From the NCBI GenBank assembly GCA_964399675.1, contig CAYNRK010000004.1, positions 12,715-76,714 on the forward strand: a DNA stretch of 64,000 bases, in the 5' to 3' direction. A model generated the notes under the pieces. That model was not told where the DNA came from. It saw nothing but the letters and a program-made list of their open reading frames with translations, and did not search any database. Shown here piece by piece: positions 12,443 to 47,534 of this stretch. The DNA comes from an uncultured Gammaproteobacteria bacterium. GTDB taxonomy: Bacteria; Patescibacteriota; Patescibacteriia; UBA9934; GWF2-40-263. The position numbers were made by a program, and so were the translations under genes. Every line of letters starts with the position of its first letter. Positions within the stretch are counted from its first letter, which is position 1.

Positions 12443-13270
12443 ATGGAATTTGATTATTTTTTATACAATAAAAAAATTTTACCAATTTCAAAAGCGGTCG
12501 TTTCATTGTTTGATATTGAATATGCTTATGGATTCGGTGTTTACGAATCAGTTCGCGTTTCTAAAGGAGCAGTAAATTTTATTGATGACCATATTGAACG
12601 ATTGATTGAATCAGCAAAGGTAATCGGTTTAAAACACAACTTTTCGCAACCAGTGATTGAAAAAGGAATTTTGGGTTTAGTTGCGAAAACCCAATCACCA
12701 TCTTTCAACATAAAAATATTATTGATTGGTGCATCTGAAAAAGAGGATGCATCATTATTTGCTTTGTGTTTAAATCCATTTTTCCTTGATAAGAAATTAT
12801 ACAAAAATGGAGCTGACTTTATTACTTATAATCACGAAAGGGTTTTTCCTCATGCAAAAAGTTTGAACATGCTCCCAAGTTATGTCGCATATAAAAAAGC
12901 TAAGAGGGCTGGTGCTTATGATGCATTATTGATTAATCGGAATGGATTTATTACAGAAGGAACAAGAACAAATTTTTTCTGCATAAAAGACAAAATCATT
13001 TACACACCTCCGGATAAAGAAGTCTTGCTTGGTGTGACAAGAAAAGCATTGTTTAAAGTTGCTCAATTAAATGATTATGAAATCATTCAAAAGAATATCA
13101 GGTTTAGCGATGTTAAAAATTATGAAAATGCATTTGTATCTAGTACTTCAGCAAAAATCCTACCAATAAAAAAAATCAACACAACAATTTTTCAATCACC
13201 ATCAGAAGATCTTAAAAAGTTAATGAATTTGTTTGATGATTTTTTAACGAAGTGCAATGGAAAAATTTGA
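12443..13270 (+). CDS. class IV aminotransferase (D-amino acid / branched-chain type)
   Basis: Fold-type IV pattern (..YGFGVYESVRV.., ..EGTRTNFF..). Adjacent to murD, so a plausible D-Glu/D-Ala supplier. Confidence 0.6.
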   Translation: MEFDYFLYNKKILPISKAVVSLFDIEYAYGFGVYESVRVSKGAVNFIDDHIERLIESAKVIGLKHNFSQPVIEKGILGLVAKTQSPSFNIKILLIGASEKEDASLFALCLNPFFLDKKLYKNGADFITYNHERVFPHAKSLNMLPSYVAYKKAKRAGAYDALLINRNGFITEGTRTNFFCIKDKIIYTPPDKEVLLGVTRKALFKVAQLNDYEIIQKNIRFSDVKNYENAFVSSTSAKILPIKKINTTIFQSPSEDLKKLMNLFDDFLTKCNGKI

Positions 13271-13296
13271 GTTTTTGATAAAAAACGATTCGGAAA

Positions 13297-13330
13297 ATTT
13301 GACAAACAGGGAAAAATTTGGTTTAATATA
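13297..13330 (+). promoter_or_regulatory. sigma70-like promoter (TTGACA-18-TAATAT) of tRNA-like unit 1
   Basis: Hexamers read directly. The same layout is repeated at 15588..15622. Confidence 0.5.
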
Positions 13331-13427
13331 AATGCAGATGAGGGTTTAAAAACCTCCACCAACTGATGTCAATAAAATCTCCCTTCCAAATTTGTGATGG
13401 GAGATTTTATTTATTTCCCGAGTTCAT

Positions 13428-13504
13428 GGGCTTGTGGAGGTAATTGGTAACCTCATCTGCTTTGACATCAGAAGTTGCGGGTTCGAATCCCGTCGAGTCC
13501 ACCA
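13428..13504 (+). tRNA. tRNA-like gene with Val(GAC)-type loop TTGACAT inside a 9-nt loop closed by a 4-bp stem
   Basis: Good acceptor, D and T arms plus CCA. Anticodon arm is tctg/caga with loop cTTTGACAt. A 12-bp leader-trailer helix (cccgagttcatgg / ccatgactcggg) encloses the body, and a terminator follows. Confidence 0.5.
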
Positions 13505-13602
13505 TGACTCGGGTTCGAGCAAATCCACTTTTAATTAAGTGGATTTGTTTTTGTAAGAAATCAGCTGGAACAATAAGTGGTTTTTTGATAGTCTGGTTTG
13601 GT

Positions 13603-15582
13603 ATGGAGTTCATAAAAGATTTCAAAAATATTAATAAAGACAATGTAGAAATTGCCGGTGGCAAAGGTGCGTCTTTGGGAGAGATGACGCAAGCTGGGCT
13701 TCCAGTTCCGCCTGGTTTTGTTGTGTTAGCAGGCACCTTTGATTTTTTTCTTAAAGAAACAGACATAAATGTTGAGATTGATGCAGTGCTCGATACTGTT
13801 GATCACAAAGTGGTTCATACAGTCCAAGATGCATCTGAGAAAATTCAAGCAATGATTTTAAATGCAGTAATGCCAAAAGAGATCCAAGACACAATTCAAT
13901 CAAGTTTTGAAAAGCTGGATGCAGATTTGGTTGCTGTACGATCAAGTGCAACTTCTGAAGACAGCGCGACTGCTGCTTGGGCGGGGCAGCTGGATACTTT
14001 TTTGAACACGACTTCTGATGAATTGATCGAGAACATTAAGAAATGTTGGGCCTCGCTTTTTACACCAAGAGCGATTTTTTATCGATTTGAAAAAGAACTT
14101 CATCAGGAAAATATTTCTGTGGCAGTTGTTGTTCAGAAAATGATTGACAGTGACGTTTCTGGAATTGCTTTTTCAGTTCATCCTGTTACAGAAGATCCAA
14201 ATCAAATGATTATTGAAGCAGCATTTGGTCTTGGCGAGGCGATTGTTTCAGGACAAGTTACACCTGATGCTTATGTTGTTGATAAAGAAACATTTGAGAA
14301 TATTGATATTAATGTAAACCAAGAAAAACAAGTTTTGTCAGAAGACCAGATTCTGAACCTTGCCAAAGAGGTTGTGAAAATCGAATCACATTATGGCTTC
14401 CCGGTTGATGTTGAGTGGGCAATGAAAGATGGGGAGTTGTTTATTCTTCAAAGCAGACCGATTACGACTCTTTCACCAAAACTTAAGGATAAAGTACTTA
14501 ATATTGATGATTATTACCAGTGTTTGTTTCGTGTAATTGCAGGGGGTGTGGCCTTTCTTACATCTGATGTGTTTCGTAGGTATTACGAGACATTACAGGC
14601 AATTTTGACAGTTAAAGATGGGGTTTGGACAAGCTATATTCCAATTGCGGTACGTGATCAATTATTAGAAGAGGGGATTAAACTCTATTCGAATAGAAAA
14701 GCATTTGAAGAATATCAAACGGCTTTTAATACTTATATTAAATTTTCCGATACGTATTTTGACAAAATACTTAATAAAAAAAATCTAACAAAAAGTGATG
14801 TAAAAAAAGGTTACGAAACAGCAGATAAACATTTTTCATTTTATTCAAAAACTGAATTCTTTTATACAGACAAAGCGTATGAGTTATCTCTTGAGGCAAA
14901 CCAACAAGAGTTGAGGGAAAATCTGAGTCGTTTAGAAGAAGTTAAAAATAATGGTAGAGAACATCTGAACCGCATGTTTTTTGGAGGAGATGGGTATATT
15001 AGTAGAATGTCTGTGAAAGTTGCTCGGCAATTTGGTGTTTCAGAAGAAGATGTTTATTTGTACAAGGTTCAAGAAGTGATTGATTTGTTTGATCACAATA
15101 GAGTGTCTGCTAAGGAATTAAAGAGACGATTAGATTCATTTGTAACCATCAGCGATGGAGGTTCTACTAAGTATTTAGTCGGTGACGAGGCGATTGCATT
15201 CATCAATAAATTTGAAGAAAAACAAAATGTTAAAGGGGGTGTGTTGCGTGGCATGAGTGCTAATGTGGGTAAAGTAACGGGAAGAGTTAAGATTATACCA
15301 TCTGATTACTATTTTGATTTTTCAGTTCTTGATTCAATAATTGATTCAATGAATGAAGGAGATGTATTGGTTGCAGAAACAACATCTCCAGAATTAATGA
15401 GAGCTTGTAAAAAAGCATCTGCGATAATTACTGATCAGGGGGGGCTTCTATCACACGCTGCAATTGTAAGTCGGGAAATGGAAATACCGTGTATTGTTGC
15501 GGTTTCAAATGCAACTCAAGTTTTAAAAGACGGTGACGAGGTTGAGGTTGATGCAAACAATGGAGTGGTTCGCAAAATTTGA
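13603..15582 (+). CDS. PEP-utilising enzyme family protein (pyruvate,water dikinase / rifampicin-phosphotransferase-like)
   Basis: N-terminal PPDK-type ATP/PEP-binding domain (GGKGASLGEM, AVRSSATSEDSATAAWAG) and C-terminal mobile His domain (TDQGGLLSHAAIVSREMEIPCIV). Start moved from 13444 to the first Met downstream of the tRNA-like element. Confidence 0.75.
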   Translation: MEFIKDFKNINKDNVEIAGGKGASLGEMTQAGLPVPPGFVVLAGTFDFFLKETDINVEIDAVLDTVDHKVVHTVQDASEKIQAMILNAVMPKEIQDTIQSSFEKLDADLVAVRSSATSEDSATAAWAGQLDTFLNTTSDELIENIKKCWASLFTPRAIFYRFEKELHQENISVAVVVQKMIDSDVSGIAFSVHPVTEDPNQMIIEAAFGLGEAIVSGQVTPDAYVVDKETFENIDINVNQEKQVLSEDQILNLAKEVVKIESHYGFPVDVEWAMKDGELFILQSRPITTLSPKLKDKVLNIDDYYQCLFRVIAGGVAFLTSDVFRRYYETLQAILTVKDGVWTSYIPIAVRDQLLEEGIKLYSNRKAFEEYQTAFNTYIKFSDTYFDKILNKKNLTKSDVKKGYETADKHFSFYSKTEFFYTDKAYELSLEANQQELRENLSRLEEVKNNGREHLNRMFFGGDGYISRMSVKVARQFGVSEEDVYLYKVQEVIDLFDHNRVSAKELKRRLDSFVTISDGGSTKYLVGDEAIAFINKFEEKQNVKGGVLRGMSANVGKVTGRVKIIPSDYYFDFSVLDSIIDSMNEGDVLVAETTSPELMRACKKASAIITDQGGLLSHAAIVSREMEIPCIVAVSNATQVLKDGDEVEVDANNGVVRKI

Positions 15583-15587
15583 TAAAC

Positions 15588-15622
15588 AGACAAAAATTTG
15601 ATTTAATATAACTACGATCGAG
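15588..15622 (+). promoter_or_regulatory. sigma70-like promoter (TTGATA-18-TAATAT) of tRNA-like unit 2
   Basis: Paralogous to 13297..13330. Confidence 0.45.
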
Positions 15623-15705
15623 GTTATCCTCTGTAAATAAATCGGTATCAACCAAAAAGAACTCCCTAAAATTACGGGAGTTCTTTTTGTATAACCCGGG
15701 CTCAA

Positions 15706-15781
15706 GGGCCTGTGGGGGTAATGGTAACCCCGATCGAGTTGATACCGATAGCTGCCGGTTCGAATCCGGTCGGGTCCACCA
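15706..15781 (+). tRNA. tRNA-like gene with Ile(GAT)-type loop TTGATAC inside a 9-nt loop closed by a 4-bp stem
   Basis: Same architecture as 13428..13504 (stem atcg/cgat, loop agTTGATAc). Leader-trailer helix cccggg..cccggg and a downstream terminator hairpin. Confidence 0.5.
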
Positions 15782-15849
15782 TGACCCGGGACTAAACAAA
15801 CCCACCTTAGTTTAGGTGGGTTTGTTGTCTTAGAAATATTGTCCAGCAT

Positions 15850-16326
15850 TCATGTTCGTGACGACTTCTCCCATTCGCGGACAATTGTTAGCGATTCGTT
15901 TTCCAGTTCAGGTAAGTGGACTAATTCTATGGGTTGTGTCAGTTCAGAGTTAATGCTTGATAACTTGTAGTGTCCGCCGTAGTATTCATTTGACACTTTT
16001 TCTTTTTGACATGCAAAAACTATTTTTGGAATTGCACTCCAGCTAGAAGCGCCAAGGCACATAATGCAAGGTTGCATAGATGCATACAGCACCGCGTCAG
16101 ACAGATCACAAGATTGAAGATTTTTGCACGCTGCTCGAATCGCGGCCATCTCGCCATGATTGGTTGGGTCGTTCTGCTTGTTGCCGACGCTGATTCCTTC
16201 ACTAATAACTTTCTCGTTTTTTACGATAACCGCACCGGCAGGAAAGCCTCCTTGCGCTACTGATTCTTTTGCCTTTTCTATTGCTTGTTGTAAAAAATGT
16301 TTGTCTTTCATAGATAATAATTTCAT
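15850..16326 (-). CDS. CMP/dCMP-type zinc deaminase (TadA / guanine deaminase-like)
   Basis: HGEMAAI ... PCIMCLGA zinc-binding signature. Confidence 0.75.
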   Translation of the reverse strand: MKLLSMKDKHFLQQAIEKAKESVAQGGFPAGAVIVKNEKVISEGISVGNKQNDPTNHGEMAAIRAACKNLQSCDLSDAVLYASMQPCIMCLGASSWSAIPKIVFACQKEKVSNEYYGGHYKLSSINSELTQPIELVHLPELENESLTIVREWEKSSRT

Positions 16327-45576: not shown

Positions 45577-47433
45577 ATGACCGATCAAAAGCAAATTCGG
45601 AATTTTTGCATTATTGCACACATTGATCATGGTAAGTCGACCCTTTCGGATCGGCTTCTTGAATTTACCGGCACAGTTGAAAAGAGAAAAATGCAAAATC
45701 AGATTTTGGATACAATGGAGCTGGAAAGGGAGAAAGGAATTACAATAAAGCTTGCGCCGGCAAGGATGGAGTATGACTACACACCAATAACCCCCCCTAA
45801 CCCCCCCTTGAAAAGGGGGGGAACTTACGTTCTCAATCTAATTGATACTCCGGGTCATGTTGATTTTAATTATGAAGTTTCTCGATCATTGGCAGCTGTT
45901 GAGGGCGCAATACTTTTAGTTGATGCAACTCAAGGTGTGCAAGCGCAAACCATTGCAAATCTTTTTTTGGCCATTGAAGAGGATTTAGAAATTATCCCTG
46001 TTCTTAATAAGATCGATCTTCCGGCAGCAGATGTTCCAGCACGAACAAAAGAAATTGTGAAACTTATTGGATGTGATCCAAAAGAGGTTTTGGCTGTAAG
46101 TGGAAAAACAGGCGAAGGTGTTGAAGCGCTTCTTGATGCAATTGTTAAGCGCATTCCAGCACCAAAAGGAAATACAGATGCGAATCCTCGAGCTTTGATT
46201 TTTGATTCTTTTTATGATGACTACCGTGGAGTCATGGCTTATATTCGCATGGTAGATGGTTTGCTTGAGAAAGGTTCAAAAATTGAAATGATTGGAACAA
46301 GTGCGCGCGCTGAAGTGTTGGAAATAGGGGCTGTTACTCCAAATGGACTAAAACCAAGTCCTGAATTTTCAACCGGGCAAATCGGTTATGTTGTCACAGG
46401 GCTTAAAGATATTTCCGCATGTCGAGTTGGTGATACTATAACTTCGGGAACCCCCCCTAACCCCCCCTTGAAAAGGGGGGGAACGTCACCGCTTCCGGGC
46501 TATAAAGATGTAAAGCCAATGGTTTTTGCTGGAATGTTTCCGCAAGAAGGTAATGACTTTCAAAAGTTAAGAGAAGCAATTGAAAGGCTAAAATTAAATG
46601 ATTCAGCGTTGATTTATGAACCAGAACACTCACCGGCGCTTGGTTATGGATTTCGGTGTGGGCTTTTGGGAATGTTGCATTTGGAGATTTTAAAAGAACG
46701 ACTTGAGCGTGAGTTTAATTTGGAACTTGTTGTTACTGTTCCATCAGTTGCGTATCAGGTTCATCAGCGTTCCAAAGAAATGATTATAATCAAGAGTCCG
46801 CTTGATCTTCCGGATCCGTCACATATTGATTTTATTGAAGAGCCATGGGTAAAATTAGATATTGTTACACCAACGGATTATGTTGGTGCTGTAATGCAGT
46901 TGGTGCAGGATAGGCGCGGTACTTACAAGAACACAGAATACCTTTCTGAGAATCGGGCGATTTTGCATTACGAGATTCCGCTTTCAATGATCATTGTTGA
47001 TTTTTACGATAAACTTAAAGGAGTAACAGCCGGATACGCATCAATGAATTATGAGGTCATTGATTATCGTGAAGCAAATGTTGTGCGTATGAATATTTTA
47101 GTGGCTGAGGATACTGTTGATGCGTTTGCTACACTTGTCTATCGAGATGAGGCGGATAAGGCTGGACGGAGAATTGTGAAGTCACTTAAAGAATCAATTC
47201 CGCGAGCAAACTTTGTAATCAAACTGCAAGCCGCTGTTGGTGGTAAGATTGTTGCAAGTGAAAGAATTTCCGCAGTTCGAAAAGACGTGACTGCAAATTT
47301 GTATGGAGGTGACGTAACACGGAAGCGCAAACTGCTTGAAAAGCAAAAGAAAGGAAAAGCTAAAATGCTAGCTCATGGAAAAGGAAAGGTAAATATTCCA
47401 ACGAATGCATATTTGAATGTTTTAAAAAGATAG
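45577..47433 (+). CDS. lepA: elongation factor 4
   Basis: FCIIAHIDHGKSTLSDRLL G1 motif and LepA-specific C-terminal domain. Two in-frame family-C insertions (PPNPPLKRGGT) at 45789..45825 and 46449..46485. Confidence 0.9.
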   Translation: MTDQKQIRNFCIIAHIDHGKSTLSDRLLEFTGTVEKRKMQNQILDTMELEREKGITIKLAPARMEYDYTPITPPNPPLKRGGTYVLNLIDTPGHVDFNYEVSRSLAAVEGAILLVDATQGVQAQTIANLFLAIEEDLEIIPVLNKIDLPAADVPARTKEIVKLIGCDPKEVLAVSGKTGEGVEALLDAIVKRIPAPKGNTDANPRALIFDSFYDDYRGVMAYIRMVDGLLEKGSKIEMIGTSARAEVLEIGAVTPNGLKPSPEFSTGQIGYVVTGLKDISACRVGDTITSGTPPNPPLKRGGTSPLPGYKDVKPMVFAGMFPQEGNDFQKLREAIERLKLNDSALIYEPEHSPALGYGFRCGLLGMLHLEILKERLEREFNLELVVTVPSVAYQVHQRSKEMIIIKSPLDLPDPSHIDFIEEPWVKLDIVTPTDYVGAVMQLVQDRRGTYKNTEYLSENRAILHYEIPLSMIIVDFYDKLKGVTAGYASMNYEVIDYREANVVRMNILVAEDTVDAFATLVYRDEADKAGRRIVKSLKESIPRANFVIKLQAAVGGKIVASERISAVRKDVTANLYGGDVTRKRKLLEKQKKGKAKMLAHGKGKVNIPTNAYLNVLKR

Positions 47434-47534
47434 TATGAAAAAGAAAACAAAGTTCCGAATCTTTTGGGGTGTTGTTGGGGGAATGGTGATCATCAGCATG
47501 GTCATGTTTACGGTTGCTATTGGTTTTGGGCTCT

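What the first reader, a model, noticed from the sequence alone, without database searches (positions are those of the whole stretch)
13290..13560. tRNA-like transcription unit 1: canonical acceptor, D and T arms, but 4-bp anticodon stem and 9-nt loop carrying a Val(GAC)-type TTGACAT; 12-bp leader-trailer helix
The unit has its own promoter and about 95-nt leader. The body is 77 nt with CCA. The trailer pairs with the leader (cccgagttcatgg / ccatgactcggg), and a terminator follows. Position 31-39 is a C-T mismatch, so the loop is cTTTGACAt. That is two nucleotides longer than any standard tRNA loop, yet it contains the exact E. coli tRNA-Val(GAC) loop heptamer. Either it is an unusual functional tRNA with an expanded anticodon loop, or a tRNA-derived regulatory RNA.
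Basis: seen in the sequence. Interest (0 to 1): 0.6.

Follow-up and report, generated by a model that had tools for sequence, protein, structure and literature searches.

The report
Alanine tRNA-like RNA with antisense partner
The odd tRNA is real. It is one copy of an apparently undescribed two-RNA gene unit of Patescibacteria, in which a short terminated RNA is complementary to the D and anticodon arms of the alanine-type tRNA look-alike encoded just downstream, as if the tRNA came with its own RNA off-switch.

Summary
First, the "95-nt leader" is itself a small RNA of about 80 nt. It starts at 13334 and ends at an intrinsic terminator (T1, 13371-13416). Its 5' 40 nt are antisense, in permuted order, to nt 7-43 of the tRNA-like body, which covers the D arm and the whole anticodon arm. 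Second, the body carries the alanine identity set (G3·U70, A73, G1-C72, G2-C71), not a valine one.

A second unit lies at 15574-15826. I found 18 more in Patescibacteria MAGs and metagenomes. In all of them the anticodon arm differs and the upstream RNA changes to match it. The cognate leader is the best partner in 18 of 19 cases. There are 30 G·U against 3 A·C mismatches. In one locus the small RNA is a separate gene downstream of the tRNA-like.

The 4-bp stem and 9-nt loop are the family consensus. The hairpin alone is weak (0 to -4.8 kcal/mol), so it looks like a docking site, not a decoding oddity.

The module has no Rfam family beyond weak tRNA hits, no conserved protein neighbour, and I found no paper on it. 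The most likely mechanism is antisense sequestration and unfolding of an alanine-accepting tRNA-like RNA. Its cellular role is unknown.

The parts
13299..13327 (+). Unit 1 promoter: -35 TTGACA (13299-13304), 17-nt spacer, extended -10 TGnTTTAAT (13319-13327). Predicted start is G13334.
   Evidence: The 38-nt block AAAATTTGAYAAACAGRSAAAAATTTGRTTTAATATAA occurs exactly twice in the window, with 0 expected by chance. A TTGAC-type -35 lies at the same distance from segA in 16 of the 19 leader-first units. The simple scanner did not list it.
13334..13416 (+).
   Evidence: L116 has the same kind of RNA as an independent gene with its own promoter and terminator.
13334..13343 (+). segA, GCAGAUGAGG: antisense to tRNA-like nt 22-31 (3' strand of the D stem, nt 26, 5' strand of the anticodon stem).
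   Evidence: 10 of 10 pairs. -18.2 kcal/mol against -6.0 +/- 1.9 for shuffles, 0 of 2000 as good. Across the family 95% paired, 10 of 10 pairs with compensatory changes.
13340..13359 (+). Middle hairpin GAGG-GUUUAAAAA-CCUC. Its 3' side forms segC (CCUCCAC, 13353-13359), antisense to tRNA-like nt 7-13 (GUGGAGG). Small-RNA nt 1-26 are therefore a contiguous antisense copy of tRNA-like nt 7-31, apart from the loop.
   Evidence: Cofold. -14.1 kcal/mol, z = -4.0. Family-wide covariation cannot be tested because nt 7-13 are nearly invariant.
13363..13372 (+). segB, CUGAUGUCAA: antisense to tRNA-like nt 33-42 (anticodon loop and 3' strand of the stem).
   Evidence: -14.7 kcal/mol, z = -5.5, 1 of 2000 shuffles as good. 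In the family, nt 35-43 are 9 of 9 paired in 18 of 19 units, with compensatory changes in 9 of 12 columns.
13371..13416 (+). T1: intrinsic-terminator-like hairpin (AAAAUCUCCC...GGGAGAUUUU) plus a U run, starting directly after segB.
   Evidence: -18.3 kcal/mol. A hairpin plus U run is present at this position in all 19 leader-first units, at -13.5 to -37.6 kcal/mol. No competing antiterminator beyond shuffle level.
13417..13427 (+). 5' strand of the leader-trailer helix P0 (CCCGAGUUCAU).
13428..13504 (+). tRNA-like body, 77 nt:
- acceptor GGGCUUG/CGAGUCC with G3·U70, A73 and encoded CCA;
- D arm GAGG(U)/(A)CCUC;
- weak anticodon arm UCUG/CAGA with the 9-nt loop cUUUGACAu;
- 4-nt variable loop;
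- canonical T arm.
   Evidence: ARAGORN. Rfam 32.3 bits. RNAalifold consensus cloverleaf, G3·U70 in 20 of 20.
13505..13513 (+). 3' strand of P0 (UGACUCGGG).
13520..13553 (+). T2: final terminator hairpin (CAAAUCCACUU...AAGUGGAUUUG) plus a U run.
   Evidence: -18.0 kcal/mol. An equivalent hairpin is present in 17 of 19 units.
15574..15826 (+). Unit 2, a paralogous module:
- promoter, -35 TTGATA 15579-15584 and -10 15602-15607;
- small RNA 15614-15692, with segA 15614-15623, segC 15628-15633, segB 15641-15652 and T1 15653-15692;
- P0 5' strand 15695-15705;
- tRNA-like 15706-15781, with G3·U70 and loop aGUUGAUAc;
- P0 3' strand 15782-15790;
- T2 15794-15826.
   Evidence: segB is 12 of 12 paired (z = -5.6). 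segA is weaker, 8 of 10 (z = -1.4).

Best explanation
The finding is one copy of a self-contained two-RNA module.

How the two RNAs are made:
- A sigma-70-type promoter starts transcription at the first base of a small RNA of about 80 nt. Most transcripts should end at terminator T1 (inferred).
- Read-through continues into a tRNA-like RNA. This RNA is bracketed by a leader-trailer helix (P0, probably a processing stalk) and a second terminator.
- The tRNA-like keeps a normal acceptor/T-arm half with the alanine identity set and an encoded CCA, so it should be charged by AlaRS (inferred from identity rules).

How they pair:
- The D/anticodon half of the tRNA-like is the exact counterpart of the small RNA. 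Small-RNA nt 1-26 are antisense to nt 7-31, and the next block is antisense to nt 33-43.
- The anticodon hairpin is deliberately weak: four pairs, or five with an internal mismatch. It presents a conserved U-turn-like loop (UUGNYA).
- The single-stranded anti-loop of the small RNA can nucleate on that loop. Both stems then swap partners, as in CopA/CopT-type antisense pairs that pass through a four-way junction.
- The product is an intermolecular duplex of about 35 bp. It destroys the L-shape and leaves only the acceptor/T minihelix.

Proposed consequence: the small RNA acts in trans when terminated and in cis on the read-through precursor. It is a dedicated, sequence-addressed off-switch or neutraliser for its own tRNA-like, and the amount of free cloverleaf is set by T1 read-through and small-RNA turnover.

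Status of each step:
- Shown: the anatomy, the complementarity, its covariation and its specificity.
- Inferred: expression, charging, and the direction and purpose of the regulation.
For: - Specificity: with RNAduplex, the cognate leader binds nt 22-31 at a mean of -16.0 and nt 32-43 at -16.8 kcal/mol. Non-cognate leaders give -8.8 and -8.7. The cognate leader ranks first of 19 in 18 of 19 units.
- Covariation: 92.7% of 601 cells are paired against 65.7% in shuffles and at most 43% when the register is slid. 27 of 31 pairs show double changes.
- RNA-level pairing on this strand: 30 G·U against 3 A·C mismatches.
- The anticodon hairpin alone gives only 0 to -4.8 kcal/mol. Its stem is less well paired (80%) than either intermolecular helix (95% and 90%).
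- After paying to open both RNAs, the heteroduplex is favourable in all 19 units, mean -11.4 kcal/mol. The anti-loop toehold is unpaired with mean probability 0.77.
- The two window pairs are orthogonal: cognate ddG -12.8 and -8.5, crossed -3.2 and -3.2.
- In L116 the small RNA has its own promoter and terminator and lies downstream of the tRNA-like, with nothing after it. This points to action in trans.
- All 19 leader-first units have a terminator hairpin 0-3 nt after segB.
- Ordinary tRNAs of the window show no such complementarity, only -4 to -10 kcal/mol.
- The seed sequences have no other exact match in the 64 kb.
- G3·U70 is present in 20 of 20, and G3 was not fixed by the search pattern.
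Against: - There are no expression, end-mapping, charging or binding data. Everything is computational.
- The relatives were found with a pattern that fixed GGTAAC, the T loop and TCCACCA. U70, A73 and CCA in relatives are therefore ascertained, and members with another identity would have been missed.
- The alignment used for pair counts was assembled by searching for the best complementary windows, so it leans towards pairing. The cognate versus non-cognate test, the shuffle tests and the slide test are the controls.
- The intermolecular structure is topologically a pseudoknot with a nick. Its feasibility was not modelled in 3D.
- Loop nt U33, U34, G35 and A38 are nearly invariant although pairing to nt 32-34 is often absent. 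The loop is therefore under some further constraint that this model does not explain.
- If T1 is efficient, little tRNA-like would be made. Why a cell keeps such a gene is unanswered.
- Unit 2 segA is weak (z = -1.4), and L007 has no segA at all.
Confidence: 0.5

Rival explanations
1. Autoregulatory attenuator, with T-box-like logic. The mature tRNA-like binds the nascent leader of its own gene through its anticodon arm and changes the outcome at T1, so that its abundance or charging state feeds back on its own synthesis.
For: A leader that pairs with an anticodon loop and is immediately followed by an intrinsic terminator is the T-box layout. In L002_1 and L003, segB (CGGGUGGCA) could also pair with the 5' arm of T1 (UGCCACCGG), which would act as an antiterminator.
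Against: Across 19 units the best pairing between the 5' domain and the T1 5' arm is no better than shuffled controls. No T-box family hit appears even at E up to 10. There is no UGGN bulge to read the NCCA end. In L116 the small RNA is not upstream of anything, so there is nothing for it to attenuate.
Confidence: 0.12
2. The duplex is the working form. A two-piece RNA holds an alanine-charged acceptor/T minihelix on an RNA scaffold. It could be a non-ribosomal alanine donor (for example for a Fem/MurM-type cell-wall transferase or lipid aminoacylation) kept out of the ribosome, or a tmRNA-like rescue RNA.
For: The acceptor/T half with G3·U70 stays intact in the complex. tmRNA also has G3·U70 and lacks a working anticodon arm (established knowledge). 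The window units sit in a murein-ligase and D-amino-acid-aminotransferase neighbourhood.
Against: The cell-wall context is not conserved. Other units lie next to RecJ/LepA, ThrRS, GreA, SecDF, NUDIX or ComEC genes. PPDK-like orthologues elsewhere have no unit beside them. There is no tag reading frame or pseudoknots, ARAGORN calls no tmRNA, and Rfam tmRNA scores are 11.6-20.8 against a gathering score of 47. The model does not explain why the addressed region diverges so fast.
Confidence: 0.12
3. An ordinary decoding tRNA with an enlarged loop. The upstream complementarity only chaperones or times the folding and processing of the precursor in cis.
For: The elbow is canonical (GG in the D loop, UUCGAAU T loop) and CCA is encoded. 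Read with U34 as the U-turn, the loop fits Y-U-NNN-R and equals real anticodon loops, for example E. coli tRNA-Val(GAC). Loop triplets are conserved within subfamilies while the stems drift.
Against: The acceptor identity is alanine in all members, but no loop triplet in the 35-37 frame is an alanine anticodon. Close relatives differ in that triplet: GCC in L002_1 against GUC in L003, over nearly identical leaders. Rfam scores are marginal, and 10 of 18 relatives are not reported at the gathering score. The stand-alone small RNA in L116 cannot act in cis. A terminator between a 'chaperone' and its client is hard to explain.
Confidence: 0.12
4. No RNA function. The locus is a decaying tRNA-Ala pseudogene, or DNA-level repeats left by an integrase or a mobile element that targets the anticodon loop.
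For: The units are not syntenic between genomes. A short AAAATTTGA repeat lies near the unit borders.
Against: Twenty units from distinct lineages keep the promoter, two terminators, the cloverleaf and three helices through compensatory changes. G·U is tolerated but A·C is not, which is an RNA-level signature on this strand. The complementary blocks are permuted, not a simple inverted repeat. No integrase is nearby, and 31 viral-contig hits contained no member.
Confidence: 0.02

Closest known systems
T-box riboswitch (Rfam RF00230)
   Same: A 5' leader RNA base-pairs with a tRNA anticodon loop presented by a U-turn, and it sits directly upstream of an intrinsic terminator.
   Different: - No Stem I, specifier loop or T-box sequence, and no reading of the NCCA end.
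- Pairing covers about 35 nt and requires unfolding the D and anticodon arms, not 3-4 nt on a folded tRNA.
- No antiterminator.
- The downstream gene is the tRNA-like itself, not an aaRS or biosynthesis gene.
- The leader can be a separate gene.
Antisense RNA control of the CopA/CopT and RNAI/RNAII type, and type I toxin-antitoxin antisense RNAs
   Same: A small, terminated RNA with an accessible single-stranded seed meets a U-turn loop of a structured target. Pairing can then spread by stem exchange into an extended duplex or four-way junction. The pairs are sequence-addressed and orthogonal between paralogues.
   Different: - Encoded on the same strand, upstream of the target, not opposite it.
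- The complementary blocks are permuted.
- The target is a tRNA-like RNA, not an mRNA or a replication primer.
- No toxin ORF.
tmRNA tRNA-like domain
   Same: G3·U70 alanine identity, a canonical T arm and ACCA end, and no conventional decoding anticodon arm.
   Different: - The unit has a complete cloverleaf of 76-78 nt.
- No pseudoknots and no tag ORF.
- Not called by ARAGORN, and below threshold in Rfam.
Natural mistranslating or identity-mismatched tRNAs and non-proteinogenic tRNAs (tRNA-Pro with an Ala anticodon in Streptomyces; cell-wall tRNA-Gly of Staphylococcus) - recalled from memory, not tested here
   Same: tRNA genes whose acceptor identity and anticodon disagree, or that are kept away from ribosomal decoding.
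   Different: None of these is known to come with a dedicated antisense RNA. They have normal 5-bp/7-nt anticodon arms.
+1 frameshift-suppressor tRNAs with expanded anticodon loops (sufJ type; PMC4238358 appeared)
   Same: An anticodon loop larger than 7 nt. The family loop can be read as the tRNA-Ala(UGC) loop UUGCA with one nucleotide inserted after G.
   Different: Here the enlargement comes mostly from an unpaired 31-39 (or 29-41 or 30-40) position in a weak stem. The arm covaries with an antisense partner. No evidence of quadruplet decoding.

Membership tests
Canonical elongator tRNA (Rfam RF00005) | Cloverleaf with a 7-bp acceptor stem, D arm, T arm with a UUCRANY loop, and a 3' CCA | tested here: met
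   ARAGORN. Infernal alignment. RNAalifold consensus on 20 members. The D stem is an unusual conserved GAGG(U)/(A)CCUC.
Canonical elongator tRNA (Rfam RF00005) | 5-bp anticodon stem closing a 7-nt loop (Y32-U33-NNN-R37) | tested here: not met
   The consensus is a 4-bp stem and a 9-nt loop. Positions 31-39 are unpaired in 11 of 20 and 29-41 in 5 of 20. The hairpin gives 0 to -4.8 kcal/mol. In the standard frame nt 37 is a pyrimidine.
Canonical elongator tRNA (Rfam RF00005) | Score clearly above the curated threshold | tested here: inconclusive
   32.3 and 39.8 bits against a gathering score of 29 for the window units; ordinary tRNAs score 54-72. Only 8 of 18 relatives were reported at the gathering score.
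Canonical elongator tRNA (Rfam RF00005) | Anticodon agrees with the acceptor identity and is stable among orthologues | tested here: not met
   ARAGORN calls Ser, Ala, Thr, Ile, Pro, Asp and Gly for members that all carry G3·U70.
AlaRS substrates (tRNA-Ala identity) | G3·U70 wobble pair in the acceptor stem | tested here: met
   20 of 20. U70 was fixed by the search pattern in relatives, but G3 was not. Both window units have it, independently of any pattern.
AlaRS substrates (tRNA-Ala identity) | A73 discriminator, G1-C72 and G2-C71 | tested here: met
   In relatives nt 71-73 are ascertained by the pattern.
AlaRS substrates (tRNA-Ala identity) | Actual alanylation | not testable with these tools
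   Needs an in vitro charging assay or tRNA-seq with periodate treatment.
tmRNA (one-piece or two-piece) | tRNA-like domain joined to pseudoknots and a tag reading frame with a resume codon | tested here: not met
   ARAGORN found no tmRNA. Rfam tmRNA and tmRNA_permuted score 11.6 and 20.8 bits against a gathering score of 47. The small RNA is 60-96 nt, about half of it terminator hairpin, and no tag-like frame was evident on inspection of several leaders (not scanned systematically).
T-box riboswitch | Stem I with a specifier loop, a conserved T-box sequence, and an antiterminator that pairs with NCCA | tested here: not met
   No RF00230 match at E up to 10 in 13200-15900. No antiterminator alternative above shuffle level.
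YrlA / bacterial Y RNA | tRNA-like module plus a Ro-binding stem; Rfam RF02553 | tested here: not met
   16.4 bits against a gathering score of 69.
Cis-encoded antisense RNA / type I toxin-antitoxin | Antisense RNA transcribed from the strand opposite its target; a toxin ORF | tested here: not met
   Both RNAs are on the + strand and the blocks are permuted. No ORF is conserved in the unit. The G·U over A·C excess fixes the functional strand.

The most novel reading that the evidence does not exclude
An RNA-only toxin-antitoxin or switchable-mistranslation device.

- The tRNA-like is charged with alanine but presents, behind a U-turn, triplets for Val (GAC), Ile (GAU), Gly (GCC), Asp (GUC) or Thr (GGU). 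Most are one change (GAU is two) from the alanine anticodon GGC, and none is an alanine anticodon.
- Free, it would insert alanine at those codons, or read four bases.
- Its own short-lived antisense RNA, made in excess from the same promoter, keeps it unfolded.
- When transcription or small-RNA stability drops, the stable tRNA-like is released.

The patchy, non-syntenic distribution and the orthogonal paralogous pairs would fit a selfish or stress-responsive element.
Probability: 0.18. Interest if true: 0.95.

Novelty: categorically new. Interest (0 to 1): 0.82.

Why it matters
tRNAs are normally regulated by amount, modification or cleavage. I know of no natural case, and found none in Rfam 15 or in six full-text searches, of a small RNA dedicated to unfolding one specific tRNA-like partner, encoded with it as a single transcription unit.

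If the pairing works as predicted, three things follow:
- It defines a new class of RNA-RNA regulation that acts on the translation apparatus itself. It occurs in Patescibacteria, organisms with minimal genomes and few known regulators.
- The pairs are sequence-addressed and mutually orthogonal. That makes them natural parts for engineering switchable tRNAs.
- Routine annotation currently mislabels these genes as tRNA-Ser, Thr, Ala, Ile or Pro. It also lets a protein-coding call (692 aa) start inside the CCA end.

If the free form decodes, this would be a regulated natural case of alanine mistranslation.

Tried and rejected
- **Link to the PPDK_N/PEP-utilizers gene that the two window units flank.** Rejected. 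No other unit has that neighbour, and three orthologous PPDK-like loci have no unit.
- **Phage origin.** A viral-contig scan gave 31 hits, all ordinary tRNA-Ala and similar.
- **Known RNA families.** Rfam at gathering and at E up to 10 gave only weak tRNA hits. T-box was absent, and tmRNA, YrlA and sRNA hits were far below threshold.
- **Hammerhead-like or C/D-box-like reading of CUGAUG/GAUGAGG in unit 1.** Rejected because these letters lie in the variable complementary segments and are not conserved.
- **A small ORF in the leader or a tag frame.** None seen conserved on inspection; this was not scanned systematically.
- **An antiterminator competing with T1.** Not above shuffle level, except possibly in L002_1 and L003.
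- **Other targets of the small-RNA seeds in the window.** None exact.
- **The simple promoter/terminator scanner.** It lists none of the unit's elements.
- **Search for a canonical tRNA-Val(GAC), Ile(GAU) or Ala in the same genome.** Only about 17 kb beyond the window could be fetched, with no new tRNA.
- **Literature.** Six full-text searches ran; a seventh query was rejected for syntax. None found a description of this module.
Full report
**Observation**

ARAGORN finds a 77-nt tRNA with an encoded CCA at 13428-13504. Rfam's tRNA model scores it 32.3 bits against a gathering score of 29. The six ordinary tRNAs of the window score 54-72 bits.

The body reads GGGCUUG-UG-GAGG-UAAUUGGUAA-CCUC-A-UCUGC-UUUGACA-UCAGA-AGUU-GCGGG-UUCGAAU-CCCGU-CGAGUCC-A-CCA. 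Positions 31 and 39 are C and U. The stem therefore has four pairs and the loop nine nucleotides. The tRNA finders get a 7-nt loop only by accepting the mismatch, and they then call Ser(UGA).

The leader-trailer helix gives -19.5 kcal/mol against -6.8 +/- 2.2 in 2000 shuffles, none as good. The loop heptamer UUGACAU is indeed that of E. coli tRNA-Val(GAC).

The consensus promoter/terminator scanner did not list the unit's elements. They rest on folding and on conservation, described below.

A second unit lies at 15574-15826. It has an identical 38-nt promoter block and the same layout.

Both bodies have G1-C72, G2-C71, G3·U70 and A73. By established knowledge this is the AlaRS identity set, shared with tmRNA.

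In both units the "leader" contains an intrinsic-terminator-like hairpin with a U run just before the leader half of the helix (T1: 13371-13416 and 15653-15692).

In both units the RNA upstream of T1 is complementary to the unit's own D and anticodon arms, although the two arms differ in sequence.
- In unit 1, GCAGAUGAGG (13334-13343) pairs with nt 22-31.
- CCUCCAC (13353-13359) pairs with nt 7-13.
- CUGAUGUCAA (13363-13372) pairs with nt 33-42.
- Against shuffles these give z = -6.5, -4.0 and -5.5.

The predicted transcription start (G13334, A15614) is the first base of the first complementary block. Small-RNA nt 1-26 form a contiguous antisense copy of tRNA-like nt 7-31, apart from the loop. 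The antisense of nt 33-43 follows. The antisense is therefore complete but permuted.

**Relatives**

A pattern scan of one genome per species gave eight loci. Seven are labelled Patescibacteria, Parcubacteria, Uhrbacteria or simply 'bacterium'. One is labelled Gammaproteobacteria and is probably mis-binned. One locus, L002, holds two units. A viral scan gave none.

All 19 leader-first units share the order: promoter, complementary RNA, T1, P0 5' strand, tRNA-like, P0 3' strand, T2.

Locus L116 is different and informative. There the tRNA-like comes first. The complementary RNA follows with its own TTGACT-17-TAATAT promoter and its own terminator, and nothing lies after it. The small RNA is thus a gene product in its own right and can act in trans.

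L007 lacks the first block and has a longer second block of 14 bp.

**Is the complementarity real?**

- *Cognate versus non-cognate.* Each half of the arm binds its own leader at about -16 to -17 kcal/mol and other leaders at about -9. The cognate leader ranks first of 19 in 18 of 19 cases.
- *Pair counts.* I used a gapless alignment of the extracted segments joined by artificial A8 linkers. This alignment is fitted, so it leans towards pairing. In it, 92.7% of cells pair, against 65.7% in shuffles and at most 43% when the register is slid. 27 of 31 pairs show changes on both sides.
- *Mismatch types.* There are 30 G·U against 3 A·C mismatches. This fits RNA pairing on this strand and does not fit DNA-level repeats or an opposite-strand transcript.
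- *Negative controls.* The ordinary tRNAs of the window show no upstream or downstream complementarity. The seeds have no other exact match in the 64 kb.

**The anticodon arm**

RNAalifold on the 20 bodies returns a cloverleaf with G3·U70 invariant, a 4-bp anticodon stem and a 9-nt loop. The intramolecular stem is paired in 80% of cells. Each intermolecular helix does better, at 95% and 90%. As an isolated hairpin the arm is worth 0 to -4.8 kcal/mol. Every member has at least one mismatch in the stem, at 31-39, 29-41 or 30-40.

The loop is N-N-U-U-G-N-Y-A-N.
- U33, U34, G35 and A38 are nearly invariant, although pairing to nt 32-34 is often missing.
- Pairing always begins at G35 and runs 3'. 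That is what a U-turn would present.
- Read in that frame, nt 35-37 are GAC (8), GUC (4), GCC (4), GAU (2), GGU (1) and AUC (1), each followed by a purine.
- The loop is equally the tRNA-Ala(UGC) loop UUGCA with one base inserted.
- The extra constraint on the loop is unexplained.

**Energetics and kinetics (predicted)**

After paying to open nt 22-43 of the tRNA-like and the two blocks of the small RNA, the heteroduplex is favourable in all 19 units. The range is -2 to -22 kcal/mol, mean -11.4. The anti-loop "toehold" is unpaired with mean probability 0.77. The two window pairs are orthogonal: -12.8 and -8.5 for cognate pairs against -3.2 for crossed pairs.

The small RNA is the mirror image of the D arm and the anticodon stem. 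Pairing can therefore spread by reciprocal stem exchange, as in CopA/CopT-type antisense systems. That comparison rests on established knowledge and is an analogy only.

**Context**

There is no conserved protein neighbour.
- The window units flank a PPDK_N/PEP-utilizers gene in a murein-ligase cluster.
- Other units lie next to RecJ/LepA, ThrRS, GreA, SecDF, NUDIX or ComEC genes.
- PPDK-like orthologues elsewhere have no unit beside them.
- L001 has its unit between RecJ and LepA. The window's corresponding spacer (47433-47514) is empty.

The module is therefore self-contained and patchily placed.

**Mechanism**

The best-supported reading is a two-RNA module. A promoter-proximal antisense RNA, made in excess because of T1, sequesters and unfolds the D/anticodon half of its own alanine-type tRNA-like. 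The acceptor/T minihelix stays intact. P0 is probably a processing stalk.

I put 0.5 on this regulatory-sequestration reading. About 0.8 is my figure for the narrower claim that the RNA-RNA pairing is real and selected.

A T-box-like feedback switch is weakened by the lack of any antiterminator and by L116. A tmRNA-like or non-ribosomal-donor role for the complex, and a plain decoding tRNA with a cis folding aid, remain possible. A pseudogene or att-site remnant is essentially excluded.

**Comparison and novelty**

The module works most like antisense RNA control and, more loosely, like a T-box. It fails the defining features of T-box, tmRNA, YrlA and cis-antisense or type I toxin-antitoxin systems, and it fails the anticodon-arm criterion of a canonical tRNA (see the membership table). 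Rfam 15 has no family for the upstream RNA. Six full-text literature searches found nothing. I rate it categorically new as a system, built from familiar parts.

**Limits**

- There are no expression or biochemical data.
- Relatives were ascertained with a pattern that fixed part of the D loop, the T loop and the TCCACCA end.
- The distribution beyond about 20 units is unknown, because the large-collection scans were capped.

Noticed in passing
window 15574-15826: Second, paralogous unit with a different anticodon arm (AUCGa-GUUGAUA-cCGAU) and a matching leader. The two units bracket one gene.
   Followed up: yes
window 13504-15582 (13444-15582 as an ORF): The PPDK_N/PEP-utilizers gene is on record as 692 aa (P0001), which implies an ATG start at 13504 formed by the A of the tRNA-like CCA plus TG. 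A 712-aa form uses TTG at 13444, inside the D loop. Both run through terminator T2. The likely true start is ATG 13603 (659 aa, full Pfam coverage).
   Followed up: partly
window 13259-13270 vs 13294-13304; 15574-15584: Both upstream ORFs end in AAAATTTGA, the same string that forms the -35 region of the units. In unit 2 the -35 TTGATA overlaps the stop codon of the PPDK-like gene. In unit 1 a near-copy (GGAAAAATTTGA) lies about 30 nt upstream of the real one. This could be a trace of insertion or duplication.
   Followed up: no
L116 138-340: Reversed architecture. A tRNA-like with a more ordinary D arm and its own short leader (GUUGGUGGAG pairs with CUCCACCAAC at the 3' end) is followed by a separately promoted and terminated antisense RNA.
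   Followed up: partly
L007 3950-4110: This unit lacks the first complementary block (segA) and the middle hairpin. It has a longer segB of 14 bp covering nt 33-46.
   Followed up: partly
L002 1-1400: Two units flank a short ORF with no Pfam match. The arrangement is the same 'unit - gene - unit' as in the window.
   Followed up: no
L003 (CAZPQJ010000004.1): This contig is labelled as a Gammaproteobacteria MAG. It carries a unit nearly identical in its leader to that of the Patescibacteria MAG L002, so it is probably mis-binned. Its T stem also has two mismatches.
   Followed up: no
window 13436-13454 and all relatives: The conserved D stem is GGAGG(U)...(A)CCUC, a Shine-Dalgarno/anti-Shine-Dalgarno-like pair. 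The small RNA carries the same GAGG and CCUC. The significance is unknown.
   Followed up: no
trailers of L002, L003, L007, L040, L049, L053, L096, L128: Directly after the 3' strand of P0 comes a conserved (G)ACCAACCAACCCCG that runs into terminator T2. The window units have a different sequence there.
   Followed up: no
window 47433-47514 vs L001 1730-2112: A syntenic RecJ-LepA spacer holds a unit in L001 but is only 80 nt and empty in the window genome. The module moves or is lost between related genomes.
   Followed up: partly
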